This document shows positions 20,394-25,532 of a DNA stretch of 64,000 bases, in pieces (positions within the stretch are counted from its first letter, which is position 1; each line of letters opens with the position of its first letter). The stretch comes from an uncultured Mycoplasmatota bacterium (GTDB taxonomy: Bacteria > Bacillota_I > Bacilli_A > RF39 > UBA660). The stretch spans positions 37,991 through 101,990 of the forward strand of contig URCH01000003.1 in the NCBI GenBank assembly GCA_900546275.1, written 5' to 3'. A program made the position numbers and the translations under genes. The notes beneath the pieces are model-generated. The model saw nothing but the letters and a program-made list of their open reading frames with translations. It was not told the origin of the DNA and made no database searches.

Positions 20394-20957
20394 TTATTTT
20401 ACAACACCACTTAAAAGGGTACATTTGTTAGAACTATTAGAGAATGTTCCATTAATATAACTTCCATCTTCACTCGCCCATGTATATTTAGTTGAATAGC
20501 TACTCTTTTCAACTATAACACCATCAACATTTCCTAGATATGTTTTAAATTCATCATATGTAATTCCACTTTTTACTTTATCTTTTAATTCATTATATTT
20601 AGAAAAATCAACATTTTTAATAGCTATTTTACTTTTATCTATATCCAATTTAATTGTTCCTTTTGTGCTTGAATAATAAGCTACTTCAATTCCGACATCT
20701 TCTGATAATTTCCAATAATATTTATTATATTTTTCATCAATTAATTCGCCATTTATACCAATTATATTATTGATTTCTTCTACTGTATTTTCAACATTTA
20801 TTTGTTTAATGCATTCAACTGCTTTACATTTACCTTTTGTTTTTTCTTCTGCTTTATTTTCATTATTATCTGTTTTTTCAACTTCTTTATTACCACATCC
20901 TGTAAATAAACTTAAAGTAAGAACGCTACATATAAAACCAAATATTATTTTTTTCAT
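20394..20957 (-). CDS. Lipoprotein of unknown function
   Basis: Lipobox LSLFTGCGN after a signal peptide, then a K/E-rich linker. It is the last gene of the tgt-led co-directional string. Confidence 0.5.
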   Translation of the reverse strand: MKKIIFGFICSVLTLSLFTGCGNKEVEKTDNNENKAEEKTKGKCKAVECIKQINVENTVEEINNIIGINGELIDEKYNKYYWKLSEDVGIEVAYYSSTKGTIKLDIDKSKIAIKNVDFSKYNELKDKVKSGITYDEFKTYLGNVDGVIVEKSSYSTKYTWASEDGSYINGTFSNSSNKCTLLSGVVK

Positions 20958-20980
20958 TTTTTCTCCTCTTTCTATAAAAA

Positions 20981-21274
20981 CTAAAATAATTCATCAATAG
21001 TTGTTACATCTTCATTTATTAATGAAACAAATACGGGAATATTATAACCTGAAAACATTTTTACTATATCATTAACATTTTTTAAAAACAAATCTTCTTT
21101 ATAAATAATTAGTTGTTTAATATTTTTTATTCCATAAGACTTTAATAATTCAATATTTTTTTTTATCAATTCATAATTACATGATAAATTAAGTGCCGTA
21201 TCATATCCAAGTTCATCAATTATTTCATCAACTTCTTGTTCATTTAAACCAATATTATATAAATCTTTTATCAT
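20981..21274 (-). CDS. Hypothetical 97-aa helical protein (cassette member 3)
   Basis: Overlaps the upstream ORF by 20 nt. Leu-rich ~30-aa helical repeat character. No recognised domain. Confidence 0.4.
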   Translation of the reverse strand: MIKDLYNIGLNEQEVDEIIDELGYDTALNLSCNYELIKKNIELLKSYGIKNIKQLIIYKEDLFLKNVNDIVKMFSGYNIPVFVSLINEDVTTIDELF

Positions 21275-22972: not shown

Positions 22973-24418
22973 TTATATCTTCCTTTCATTTGTATTTGAC
23001 AAGCAACTACTTTCTAAATTTTTTAACATTTCATTTTGATTTTCAACAAATAATTCTACTTTTTCTTCATATTTTTTCTTTTCATCAGTAGTTAATTGTT
23101 CATATTTTTGAGGTTGAATCTGTAAAAAATTCAATATCTCATCAATATAATCTGAATTGTCATAACATGTTTTTAAAGCTTTTTCAAAATTAAGCTTTTT
23201 ATCTTGTGGAGTACTCTTACATACACCAAACACTATAATAGCATGGTTAATATTTTCATATTTTTTAACATACTTGCCAAAATTTACTCCAAATCTAGAT
23301 AAAATAATTCTATTACTTCCATTCTTTATTTCTTTAACCATATATTTTTGCAAAAACTCTTTACTATAATTATCAGTTTTTAACTTATGAGGTTCTAACG
23401 AATCATATTCCTTTGGTAACATAGTGATAACTGACTTCATTTTTCCAATTGTATTAATACAGCTTGCTGGCATTTCATTTTCTAAGGTAGAATGGCCATT
23501 TTCACCTAAAAATATTAATAAAGTTTTAGCTTCTTTGTCATAAAAATTATCTTTCTTACTTTCTTCTATACTTGTTAATCTATAGTATAAATCATTAGCT
23601 TTATCTACAACATCTAATAACTCTTGATAATATTCATCTAAAGGTTCACCTAACAAACAAGCAGTTTCTAACGAGTCATAACATATTTTTAATTTTTTTT
23701 GAATTTCTATAACCTCACTAAAATCAGAAGAAGAAATATTTTTGCTATATCTGTACCCTTGTGTAATATAATAATCAAAATTTTCTCTTAGTATTTTTGC
23801 TTCATTTAAACATTCTCTACACATATCAGGAATTTCGTTTTCTGCGAATTCTTCTTTTTCCTCTATAAAATCTTCTTTTATTTCAGTTTTAATTAAATTA
23901 TCTTCTTTTGACTTTATTACATTTTTTAAATAATTAGCATTATCTTTTGCAAGTTCCATTGTTAATTCATATTGCATATTCTCATCACAATTTAATGAAT
24001 TTATTATTAAATCTATTTCATTGTTTGAAATAAATCTTTTAGAATGTTCATTTAAGATAGTTATTGTTTTTTTCTTATTTAAAATAATACTATTTAATTT
24101 TTCATATTGCAATTCTAGTTGATGTTTCTGATCTTTAATTGTATCTATAATTTTGTTAATTTTTTCTTTTATCCTTTTTATTTGCCCGGAAAATACATTT
24201 GCATCTAATTTTGGAAGTGTTTTTATTAAATTTAATAACTCAATTTTATCGTTTTCATTTAGATAACTAAAATTTTCCAATTTTACTTCATCTAACTCAT
24301 CAGCTTGATACATTTTAATAAATTTATTCAATGAATTTATTTCATTAATTATCTGTCTTAGTTGTGCTAATATATCATCTATTTGAGCCTTAGAGTTTTC
24401 TATTAATTTTTCTATCAT
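22973..24418 (-). CDS. Hypothetical 481-aa protein with a long N-terminal coiled coil (cassette member 1)
   Basis: Its stop is 2 nt from the downstream start, and its start is 2 nt after the tgt stop. Contains a CRECLNEAK segment and a C-terminal alpha/beta-looking region. No known family recognised. Confidence 0.45.
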   Translation of the reverse strand: MIEKLIENSKAQIDDILAQLRQIINEINSLNKFIKMYQADELDEVKLENFSYLNENDKIELLNLIKTLPKLDANVFSGQIKRIKEKINKIIDTIKDQKHQLELQYEKLNSIILNKKKTITILNEHSKRFISNNEIDLIINSLNCDENMQYELTMELAKDNANYLKNVIKSKEDNLIKTEIKEDFIEEKEEFAENEIPDMCRECLNEAKILRENFDYYITQGYRYSKNISSSDFSEVIEIQKKLKICYDSLETACLLGEPLDEYYQELLDVVDKANDLYYRLTSIEESKKDNFYDKEAKTLLIFLGENGHSTLENEMPASCINTIGKMKSVITMLPKEYDSLEPHKLKTDNYSKEFLQKYMVKEIKNGSNRIILSRFGVNFGKYVKKYENINHAIIVFGVCKSTPQDKKLNFEKALKTCYDNSDYIDEILNFLQIQPQKYEQLTTDEKKKYEEKVELFVENQNEMLKNLESSCLSNTNERKI

Positions 24419-24419
24419 T

Positions 24420-25532
24420 TTATTCTCCTAAATATTCTTTTACAAATTTTTCTTTGTATTCTAATAAATTATCATTTTTTATTGCTTCTCTTAATTCTTC
24501 AGTTAATTTAATTAGAAACCTTATATTATGAATTGATAGTAATCTTCCACCTAACATTTCATTACTCACTATTAAATGTCTTATATAAGCTTTTGTATAA
24601 TTTTTACAAGTATAACAGTCACAATTATGTTCTATAGGTTCAAAGTCTTCTTTATATTTCAAATTTCTAATGTTAATTTTTCCTTGTCTAGTAAAAGCAT
24701 TTCCATGACGTGCAAGTCTTGTAGGTAATACGCAATCAAACATATCAACCCCTCTAATAACACCCTCAATTATATCTATAGGATCTCCTACTCCCATCAA
24801 ATATCTTGGTTTATCTTCAGGTAAATATTTAATTGCATAATCGATCATATTATACATTGTTGTTTTGTCTTCTCCAACACTTGTTCCACCAATTGAATAA
24901 CCGTCAAAATTCATTTTAACAGTTTCTTCGGCACTTAACTTTCTTAGATCTTCATATTCTCCACCTTGAATAATACCAAACAAAGATTGATTTTCATTTT
25001 TATGAGCATCTAACCCTCTTTTTGCCCATCTAATAGTTCTCTCTGTACTTTTTTTTGCGTATTCATAATTTGCAGGATATGGAATACATTCATCAAAACT
25101 CATTGCTATATCACTATCAAGTTTATTTTGAATTTGAATTGAAAGTTCTGGAGTTAAAAATAGTTTTTTACCATCTATATGGCTTTTAAAAGTAACCCCT
25201 TCTTCTACAATATCTTTTTTCTTTGCTAAGGAAAAAACCTGAAAACCACCACTATCAGTTAGTATTGGTCCATCATAGTTCATAAATTTATGAAGCCCAC
25301 CAGCTTTAGAAACAACATCTTCTCCAGGTCTTAACCATAGATGATAAGTATTTGAAAGAATTATCGCACTATTCATAGCTTTTAATTCTTCGGGTGTCAA
25401 TGTTTTAACATTTGCAAGTGTTCCAACAGGCATAAACATAGGTGTATTAAATTCGCCATGATTAGTTTTTAAAAGACCATATCTAGCTTTCGTATTATTT
25501 TCTTTTTTTAATAATTCATATTTTATTTTCAT
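24420..25532 (-). CDS. tgt: Queuine tRNA-ribosyltransferase
   Basis: Catalytic Asp motifs ([15 protein letters not shown]) and the zinc site [17 protein letters not shown]. Length 370 aa. Confidence 0.95.

What the first reader, a model, noticed from the sequence alone, without database searches (positions are those of the whole stretch)
20394..25532. Three-gene cassette of unrecognisable proteins translationally coupled to tgt
The tgt stop, the 481-aa ORF, the 571-aa ORF and the 97-aa ORF are separated by 2 nt, 2 nt and a 20-nt overlap. A lipoprotein gene ends the same-strand string. The 481-aa protein starts with ~150 aa of heptad-rich coiled coil and has a Cys-containing middle segment (CRECLNEAK). 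The 571-aa protein has an Asn-rich helical N-half and a Cys/His-rich C-half (CSSFFSHSASHAD, ECGCYEYISDNISRLSCSD). The 97-aa protein resembles a fragment of the same helical repeat. None matches a family I can name. In Bacillus-type genomes tgt is normally flanked by queA and yajC, so this is a non-canonical operon partner set. The possibilities are a sporulation or surface-structure module that merely shares the tgt promoter, or a functional link to queuosine or 7-deazaguanine biology. TGT paralogues such as DpdA work with dedicated partner proteins, though this tgt looks like the housekeeping enzyme.
Basis: inference. Interest (0 to 1): 0.6.

Follow-up and report, generated by a model that had tools for sequence, protein, structure and literature searches.

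The report
Clade-specific gene module parked behind tgt
The three unknown genes behind tgt are real, but they belong to a self-contained gene module of unknown function that many related uncultured gut bacteria carry elsewhere in the genome, so the link to tgt looks like a local accident and not a queuosine connection.

The parts
24420..25532 (-). tgt, housekeeping tRNA-guanine(34) transglycosylase. It is not part of the module. It occupies the position that the small 'pre' gene holds in other genomes.
   Evidence: PF01702 E 1e-166. TIGR00430 equivalog 550 bits vs cut-off 307. dN/dS 0.018.
25560..25588 (-). Promoter-like site upstream of tgt (TTGTCA-17-TATATT). It is the only plausible promoter for the whole string, and this is inferred only.
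   Evidence: 10 of 12 matches. Such sites are at chance density in this AT-rich DNA (50 found, 51.5 expected), so the evidence is weak.
22973..24418 (-). Gene A (481 aa): heptad-rich coiled-coil N-half plus a conserved alpha/beta C-terminal domain (about residues 290-430, motif NLIVFL...HKxK...YRIxY...NVIF). It is a shortened member of a 590-675-aa family.
   Evidence: Family HMM hits in 13 loci. Alignment A3 shows about 150 aa of the central region missing. Heptads. Sub-threshold ParE_toxin hits in 5 of 12 members.
21255..22970 (-). Gene B (571 aa): N-terminal long helices (1-180), an mTERF-like short-helix solenoid with internal repeats (about 181-400), and a C-terminal alpha/beta domain carrying the invariant residues Y349, D379, E383, Y503, S511 and K514.
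20981..21274 (-). Gene C (97 aa, pI 4.3): the best-conserved member of the module and a free-standing copy of the repeat found in B.
   Evidence: 37-57 % identity to homologues whose B is only 26-36 % identical by BLASTP. hhalign to B 300-362 gives E 7e-6. Always lies directly after B.
20394..20957 (-). Lipoprotein gene (187 aa, signal peptide ending LFTGC). It is the last gene of the string and is specific to this lineage. It is not part of the conserved module.
   Evidence: Close homologues only in the same species (L001, L002). Not present after C in other loci. Weak lipoprotein N-terminal matches.
20374..20393 (.). Short AT-rich palindrome (AAAAGATC-ATTT-GATCTTTT) followed by a T run. It spans the 6-nt gap between the convergent stop codons of the lipoprotein gene and the 249-aa gene. 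It is a possible bidirectional terminator.
   Evidence: Read from the sequence. Not called by the terminator scan, which requires 3 G-C pairs.
19242..20387 (+). yrzE-like DUF3792 gene (19242-19613) and a 249-aa gene (19638-20387). These are the ancestral convergent neighbours of tgt and mark the far edge of the inserted block.
   Evidence: yrzE lies 50 nt or less from tgt in 28 of 80 relatives. The 249-aa gene is conserved next to yrzE in L006 and L081.

Best explanation
The three ORFs are the A-B-C core of a four-gene module (pre-A-B-C) that is restricted to a clade of uncultured, very AT-rich gut Bacilli. The database labels on relatives include 'Mycoplasma sp. CAG:877', 'Clostridium sp. CAG:433' and Ca. 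Coprosoma.

Shown:
- In one species-level lineage the module sits in the rearrangement-prone junction between tgt and yrzE, directly behind the tgt stop codon.
- The 'pre' gene is absent from the 64-kb window, and A is about 150 aa shorter than its relatives.

Inferred from the 1-nt spacing and the lack of a terminator:
- The module was relocated to this junction, and 'pre' was lost in the process.
- The module is now transcribed, and probably translationally coupled, from the tgt promoter.
- The linkage is positional, not functional.

Inferred mechanism of the module itself: the products assemble in fixed proportions into a heteromeric helical complex.
- A would supply a coiled-coil stalk with a globular alpha/beta head.
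- B would supply a coiled-coil N-terminus and an mTERF-type alpha-solenoid.
- C, a free copy of the same repeat, would extend, cap or compete with that solenoid.
- The solenoid and the invariant residues of B's C-terminal domain would form the ligand-binding site. The ligand could be nucleic acid, as for mTERF and pTERF, or a protein partner.

My confidence that this is an independent module with an incidental tgt linkage is about 0.85. My confidence in the scaffold or binding-complex mechanism is about 0.35, and in nucleic acid specifically as the ligand about 0.2.
For: Family and synteny:
- B has 109 representatives, full length, 23-38 % identical.
- The order pre/A/B/C, with overlaps or gaps of 14 nt or less, is found in L086-L092, in those of L094-L101 long enough to show it and in L103-L104. 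The neighbours are different housekeeping genes each time (dnaE/rpmB, tilS-ftsH, thyA-folA-tmk, map, glycosyltransferases).
- No Tgt match in the 16 loci L086-L101, and no TGT gene called in L102-L104.
- Family HMMs find no A, B, C or pre within 10 kb of tgt in 80 GTDB relatives, and no pre in the window.

The tgt junction:
- 28 of 80 relatives have tgt directly convergent with yrzE. 16 have heterogeneous inserts there (Metallophos, ABC transporter, AMP-binding, hybrid kinase, Sua5, HTH-M78).
- The same arrangement as the window occurs only in the same species cluster.

Degeneration in this lineage:
- A is shortened.
- One strain has a 328-nt frameshifting deletion in A.
- dN/dS is 0.2-0.3.

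Inheritance as a unit: B and C co-diverge. A ComGA-like gene is 67 % identical between the window and L087, while B is 34 % and C 52 % identical.

Fold:
- AF2 pLDDT 88.4.
- Internal repeats in B, and C as a copy of the repeat.
- Precedent for DNA-binding prokaryotic mTERF-like proteins in gut Bacillota MAGs (PMC11417379).

No phage or plasmid homologues.
Against: - Transcriptional read-through from tgt is inferred only. There is no expression data, and internal promoters cannot be excluded in DNA where promoter-like hexamers occur at chance density.
- All three proteins are acidic (pI about 5.2, 5.4 and 4.3, against a window median of 8.7), which is unlike basic mTERF proteins. Only B residues 251-350 are net positive.
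- No model exists for A or C. The single-sequence model of A failed (pLDDT 47).
Confidence: 0.8

Rival explanations
1. Functional partnership with Tgt: the cassette encodes accessory proteins for queuosine or 7-deazaguanine biology, analogous to DpdA with its Dpd partners. On this reading it is co-translated with tgt for that reason.
For: The 1-nt spacing after the tgt stop and the shared operon. An mTERF-like solenoid could in principle bind tRNA or DNA.
Against: The linkage exists only in one species cluster. 14 other loci carry the module, and none of those checked contains tgt. 80 Tgt-bearing relatives lack it near tgt. The tgt gene is an equivalog-level housekeeping Tgt, not a DpdA-like paralogue. 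There are no PADLOC (including Dpd) hits for A or B. In this lineage A is decaying while tgt is under strong constraint.
Confidence: 0.04
2. Anti-phage defence or toxin-antitoxin-like conflict module: the C-terminal domain of A is a RelE/ParE-type effector held on a coiled-coil sensor, and B and C act as a nucleic-acid sensor or antitoxin. On this reading it landed in a variable 'island' next to tgt.
For: Recurrent sub-threshold ParE_toxin (PF05016) hits in A (5 of 12 members, best E 0.025; domain alone 4 of 9, best E 0.008). Fast evolution. Variable genomic position, and a variable junction at tgt that in other genomes holds HTH-M78 and PDDEXK_2 genes. Loss of function in one strain.
Against: No A or B hit in PADLOC. 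The one C hit (WH_III-A) is not shared by other C members. hhalign of the A domain to RelE/ParE sequences gives 3 % probability (those sequences were recalled from memory). NCBIfam shows nothing recurrent. No homologues in phages, plasmids or viral contigs. The neighbours are housekeeping genes, without integrases or other defence genes. Divergence tracks host divergence and shows no sign of recent transfer.
Confidence: 0.12
3. Sporulation or cell-envelope structural module: coiled-coil, acidic scaffold proteins acting in spore or septum morphogenesis, with the lipoprotein as a partner.
For: The neighbourhood contains sporulation-associated families (SpoVB-like, DUF421/YrbG-like, DUF3792/YrzE-like). 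One module locus lies next to SpoIIP. The proteins are acidic and coiled-coil rich. A lipoprotein gene follows in this lineage.
Against: A, B and C have no signal peptides or membrane segments visible in the translations (read by eye). The lipoprotein is not conserved with the module. The sporulation-family neighbours belong to the ancestral tgt-relA synteny, not to the module. No Pfam or NCBIfam sporulation family reaches its curated cut-off; the best are Spore_III_AB, E 0.13 and spore_YkwD, E 0.014 in one A member.
Confidence: 0.1

Closest known systems
Eukaryotic mTERF family (human MTERF1, MTERF3, MTERF4; Pfam PF02536)
   Different: No sequence match to PF02536 in any of 60 members. B is acidic overall, whereas mTERFs are basic nucleic-acid binders. 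B has extra coiled-coil N-terminal and alpha/beta C-terminal domains. It is bacterial and sits in a fixed operon with A and C.
pTERF, prokaryotic mTERF-like DNA-binding tandem-repeat proteins from gut Bacillota MAGs (PMC11417379)
   Same: These are mTERF-like helical repeat proteins from uncultured gut Bacillota, recognised by structure and not by sequence.
   Different: pTERF proteins are regular tandem repeats (3-11 units; pTERF1 is catalogued under a 35-residue period) that bind DNA with nM affinity on their own.
RelE/ParE toxin superfamily (PF05016)
   Same: The C-terminal domain of A has a beta-alpha-alpha-beta-beta-beta pattern with a central '(D/G)YRI(I/V)Y' strand. Several members give weak ParE_toxin hits.
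   Different: All hits are below the gathering threshold. A profile-profile comparison is not significant. The domain is fused to a 300-450-aa coiled coil, and no antitoxin-like partner is recognisable.
Canonical Bacillota ruvAB-queA-tgt-yajC neighbourhood
   Same: tgt here is the same housekeeping gene. The downstream synteny yrzE-DUF421-spoVB-comN-relA-dtd is kept. The match to the Bacillus order is from my own knowledge.
   Different: No queA, ruvB or yajC was identified next to tgt here. The upstream side holds a 176-aa gene and a divergent thyA. The downstream side holds the A-B-C block. The canonical ruvB-queA-tgt order survives in the relative L044.

Membership tests
Bacterial tRNA-guanine(34) transglycosylase Tgt (for the tgt gene) | Scores above the equivalog cut-off of TIGR00430; full-length TGT domain | tested here: met
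   549.6 bits vs cut-off 306.75. PF01702 covers residues 15-367.
DpdA/Dpd 7-deazaguanine DNA-modification system | A TGT paralogue (DpdA) distinct from housekeeping Tgt, plus dedicated Dpd partner proteins | tested here: not met
   The tgt gene is an equivalog-level Tgt. None of tgt, A or B matches any PADLOC model. I expect PADLOC to include Dpd models, but this rests on my own knowledge.
Functionally linked tgt operon partner | Gene-neighbourhood linkage to tgt conserved across independent lineages | tested here: not met
   0 of the 16 module loci searched contain Tgt (L086-L101), and no TGT gene is called in L102-L104. 0 of 80 tgt loci from relatives contain the module. The linkage occurs only within one species cluster.
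mTERF family (PF02536) | Sequence match to the mTERF profile | tested here: not met
   No PF02536 hit among the top 25 of 93 recurrent families, at E <= 1, across 60 B members. None for the window protein.
mTERF family (PF02536) | mTERF-type solenoid fold of repeated short helices | tested here: met
mTERF family (PF02536) | Basic, nucleic-acid-binding protein | tested here: inconclusive
   Family median pI is 5.4. Only residues 251-350 (+8) and 401-450 (+4) are net basic. Binding itself cannot be tested with these tools.
pTERF (prokaryotic mTERF-like tandem repeat proteins) | Homology to pTERF1/2 and regular tandem repeats in 3-11 units | not testable with these tools
   pTERF sequences were not retrievable. 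B shows only about three degenerate repeats.
RelE/ParE toxin superfamily | Match to PF05016 or TIGR02385 at the curated threshold, or a significant profile-profile match | tested here: inconclusive
   Sub-threshold PF05016 hits in 4-5 members (best E 0.008-0.025). RelE_StbE E 0.25 in one member. hhalign probability 3 %.
Known anti-phage defence systems (PADLOC-DB 2.0) | Any component matches a defence-system model, reproducibly across the family | tested here: not met
   A and B have no hits. The WH_III-A hit of the window's C (E 5e-5) is absent from the 6 other C members.

The most novel reading that the evidence does not exclude
The pre-A-B-C module is a previously undescribed machine of uncultured gut Bacilli, built around a bacterial mTERF-type solenoid (B, with C as a detachable repeat unit) mounted on a coiled-coil partner (A). 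It would act on DNA or RNA, for example as a roadblock or organiser of transcription or replication, or as a nucleic-acid-sensing conflict system. That would make it the first operon-embedded, multi-subunit prokaryotic counterpart of the organellar mTERF proteins.
Probability: 0.2. Interest if true: 0.65.

Novelty: new variant of a known kind. Interest (0 to 1): 0.35.

Why it matters
This is not a new queuosine or 7-deazaguanine partner set, so it should not be used as a lead on Tgt biology.

The analysis does define a conserved gene module that public annotation has not described. It has three or four genes, at least 109 sequence clusters for B, and only 'hypothetical protein' labels in public sources. 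It is restricted to abundant but uncultured human and animal gut Bacilli.

Its central protein is one of very few bacterial proteins with an mTERF-like solenoid. If that solenoid binds nucleic acid, the module would extend the recently proposed pTERF class from single proteins to a multi-subunit system.

The tgt-yrzE junction is also shown to be a recurrent site of gene turnover in this clade.

Tried and rejected
- **Word-indexed homologue searches** returned only near-identical proteins. They failed even with the family profile, probably because low-complexity AT-rich words swamp the candidate list. The exhaustive HMMER search was what worked.
- **First genome-contig scan**, using B, found nothing. 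The C alignment worked.
- **AF2 of A from a single sequence** gave pLDDT 47 and was unusable.
- **The afdb50 library** was unavailable.
- **Foldseek against PDB and BFVD** found nothing significant. The TALE repeats at E 0.26 are only generic solenoid resemblance.
- **Profile searches of A, B, C and the A C-terminal domain against PDB sequences** gave only coiled-coil or composition noise.
- **RelE/ParE idea for the A C-terminal domain**: kept only as a weak lead.
- **PADLOC WH_III-A hit of the 97-aa protein**: rejected as chance because no other family member shares it.
- **Cys/His motifs as a metal site**: rejected because they are not conserved.
- **L077's 660-aa and 602-aa genes downstream of tgt** looked like A and B by size. 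They are an AMP-binding enzyme and a hybrid histidine kinase.
- **Phage or plasmid origin**: no hits.
- **Riboswitch or tRNA elements near tgt**: none found.
- **The terminator-like site inside B** (21943-21959) is at chance level.
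Full report
**1. The observation**

On the minus strand the window carries five ORFs:
- tgt, 24420-25532
- a 481-aa ORF ("A"), 22973-24418
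- a 571-aa ORF ("B"), 21255-22970
- a 97-aa ORF ("C"), 20981-21274
- a 187-aa lipoprotein gene, 20394-20957

The junctions were read from the sequence.
- tgt stop to the A start is 1 nt.
- A to B is 2 nt.
- B and C overlap by 20 nt.
- C to the lipoprotein gene is 23 nt.
- Each start has a Shine-Dalgarno-like purine run.

The only good promoter-like site for the string lies upstream of tgt (25560-25588). Such sites occur at chance density in this 24 % G+C DNA.

tgt is the housekeeping enzyme (TIGR00430 equivalog, 550 bits against a cut-off of 307).

A and B match nothing in Pfam, NCBIfam, PHROGs or PADLOC, and nothing among PDB sequences.

The ORFs are real genes. Against a sister strain (L001), dN/dS is 0.30 for A, 0.22 for B and 0.22 for C. 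That is constrained, but roughly ten times more relaxed than tgt (0.018) or relA (0.084).

**2. The organism and the ancestral layout**

Tgt-based retrieval of 80 species representatives (78-90 % Tgt identity) places the window among uncultured, very AT-rich gut Bacilli. The labels include 'Mycoplasma sp. CAG:877', 'Acholeplasma sp. CAG:878', 'Clostridium sp. CAG:433' and Ca. Coprosoma.

Downstream of the cassette lie a yrzE-like DUF3792 gene, a DUF421 gene, a spoVB-like gene, comN, relA and dtd. To my knowledge this is the Bacillus order.

In the 80 relatives:
- 28 have tgt directly convergent with yrzE, 50 nt or less apart.
- 16 have inserts of 0.2-5.6 kb between the two genes.
- In the remaining 36, no yrzE was found in the downstream sequence available.

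The inserts are unrelated to each other: a Metallophos phosphoesterase, an ABC transporter with a gene I read by eye as PD-(D/E)XK-like, an AMP-binding enzyme with a hybrid histidine kinase, Sua5, an HTH-Peptidase_M78 regulator, and an AAA kinase.

The one relative checked by Pfam (L044) still has ruvB-queA-(GreA-like)-tgt upstream.

The tgt 3' junction is therefore a place of gene turnover, and the window's content there is derived.

**3. The cassette is a conserved module found elsewhere**

Word-indexed searches found only copies that are 86-100 % identical.

The exhaustive HMMER search with B found 109 cluster representatives. Most are full length (550-625 aa), at 23-38 % identity.

I looked up the contigs of nine of these. 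I also fetched nine more loci through the conserved C protein.

Wherever the contig is long enough, the order is the same: a small helical protein ('pre', 140-212 aa, present in most loci), then A (590-675 aa), B (567-647 aa) and C (95-100 aa).
- Successive genes overlap by 1-11 nt or are 14 nt or less apart.
- One divergent locus (L102) has a two-gene variant.
- Family HMMs confirm homology of A (E 1e-27 to 1e-231), B and C.

The flanking genes differ every time and are ordinary housekeeping genes: dnaE/rpmB, tilS-ftsH, thyA-folA-tmk, map, rhomboid, glycosyltransferases.

No Tgt match was found in the 16 loci L086-L101, and no TGT gene is called in L102-L104. Conversely, the A, B, C and pre HMMs find nothing within 10 kb of tgt in the 80 relatives, and no 'pre' in the 64-kb window.

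The window's arrangement recurs only in contigs of the same species cluster, which is common in human gut metagenomes.

**4. State of the module in this lineage**

Here tgt occupies the position of 'pre', with the same kind of tight junction.
- A is about 150 aa shorter than its relatives. It lacks a central segment and the Gly-rich basic C-terminal tail.
- In one strain (L107), A carries a clean 328-nt frameshifting deletion bounded by a TTATC microhomology. The deletion removes the core of its C-terminal domain.
- Together with the relaxed dN/dS, this suggests a partly decaying copy that now depends on the tgt promoter.

**5. What the proteins look like**

A:
- It has significant heptad periodicity at 1-41, 70-120, 148-177 and 260-290.
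- It has a conserved alpha/beta C-terminal domain with the motif NLIVFL...HKxK...YRIxY...NVIF...YGAxD.K.
- Four or five members give sub-threshold ParE_toxin hits.
- NCBIfam and an hhalign test do not support this. I treat RelE/ParE likeness as a weak lead only.

B:
- Modelled with a 60-sequence alignment, it gives a confident structure (pLDDT 88.4).
- The model has long N-terminal helices (1-180), a solenoid of short helices (about 181-400) and an alpha/beta C-terminal domain. The family's invariant residues (Y349, D379, E383, Y503, S511, K514) lie at the end of the solenoid and in the C-terminal domain.
- Foldseek is not significant, with TALE repeats at E 0.26.
- No member matches the Pfam mTERF profile.

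Repeats and C:
- Profile comparisons show internal repeats in B. Residues 231-300 against 300-362 give E 3e-6, and 181-248 against 300-362 give E 3e-5.
- The C family aligns to the same unit (E 7e-6).
- Unrelated segment pairs give E >= 0.005.

Other properties:
- All three proteins are acidic (A about 5.2, B family median 5.4, C about 4.3), in a window whose long ORFs have a median pI of 8.7. Only B residues 251-350 are net basic.

**6. Interpretation**

Shown:
- The module is real, conserved and inherited as a unit.
- It is independent of tgt.
- The linkage is lineage-specific.

Inferred:
- Co-transcription from the tgt promoter.
- Assembly of A, B and C into a complex of fixed proportions. 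This rests on universal tight coupling, co-divergence of B and C, and complementary coiled-coil and repeat architecture.
- A binding function for the solenoid. A literature precedent exists: DNA-binding prokaryotic mTERF-like repeat proteins (pTERF) from gut Bacillota MAGs (PMC11417379). Homology to them could not be tested, and the acidity of A, B and C argues against a simple nucleic-acid binder.

A defence or toxin reading has little support:
- no PADLOC match that holds across the family
- no phage, plasmid or viral-contig homologues
- housekeeping neighbours
- divergence consistent with vertical descent (ComGA-like 67 % identical where B is 34 %)

Fast evolution and loss in one strain keep this reading alive at low probability. 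A sporulation or envelope role is untested.

**7. Verdict**

The queuosine or 7-deazaguanine interpretation is not supported. The 'merely shares the tgt promoter' alternative is supported.

What remains of interest is an undescribed clade-specific module centred on a bacterial mTERF-like solenoid protein, of unknown function. I rate it as modestly interesting (0.35). I class it as a new variant of a known kind, namely prokaryotic mTERF-like helical-repeat proteins, here multi-subunit and operon-embedded.

Noticed in passing
window 5645-5735 (-), with ORFs 2940-5081 (-) and 861-2135 (+): A c-di-GMP-I riboswitch (62 bits, gathering score 35) lies about 560 nt upstream of a 713-aa T2SSF-type platform protein and near a T2SSE ATPase. 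This suggests c-di-GMP control of a type IV pilus or competence-pilus locus in this reduced-genome Bacillus-class organism.
   Followed up: partly
L006-L085, the region just 3' of tgt (for example L006:11110-15470, L077:11094-16700, L061:3568-5110): The tgt-yrzE junction is a gene-turnover hotspot in this clade. 28 of 80 genomes have nothing there. 16 carry unrelated cargo: an ABC transporter with a gene I read as PD-(D/E)XK-like, Metallophos, AMP-binding plus hybrid kinase, Sua5, HTH-Peptidase_M78, and an AAA/zeta-like kinase.
   Followed up: partly
L107:4185-5302 (same species as the window): One strain carries a 328-nt frameshifting deletion inside gene A, bounded by a TTATC microhomology. 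It removes the conserved C-terminal domain. This may be natural loss of function, although an assembly artefact is not excluded.
   Followed up: yes
window 26222-27349 (+) and 25638-26168 (+): Divergently upstream of tgt lies an unusually long thymidylate-synthase homologue (375 aa). It is only 25 % identical to the ThyA of a related genome (L089) and matches the phage thymidylate-synthase family PHROG 160 (E 2e-63). Among the fetched loci it is found next to tgt only in contigs of this species cluster. The 176-aa gene between it and tgt is a conserved tgt neighbour in several relatives, and its function is unknown.
   Followed up: partly
window 27443-28027 (-); L001:5177-5983 and 6075-6956: The 194-aa protein contains an internal repeat (…ANIEKLENAIIE…AxxIYxFAxxxKGAN…). 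It has two longer tandem paralogues in the sister strain. No family match was found.
   Followed up: no
window 19638-20387 (+): The 249-aa protein convergent with the lipoprotein gene gives weak matches to the Bud32/KEOPS kinase core (NCBIfam E 2e-4). It is conserved next to yrzE in L006 and L081. It may be a small atypical kinase.
   Followed up: no
L086:2069-2557, L088:5597-6019, L089:5374-5958, L092:5520-6158, L096, L098, L100 ('pre' genes) and the C-termini of A homologues: The 'pre' proteins and the A proteins of other genomes both end in short Gly-rich basic tails (…KGGxxxG/K). The window's A lacks this tail. The shared tail suggests a common docking or recognition element.
   Followed up: no
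L102:4668-7701: The most divergent B relative (672 aa) sits behind a 337-aa gene with no C gene. The contig also carries a Coat_F gene. This may be a two-gene ancestral or derived variant of the module.
   Followed up: no
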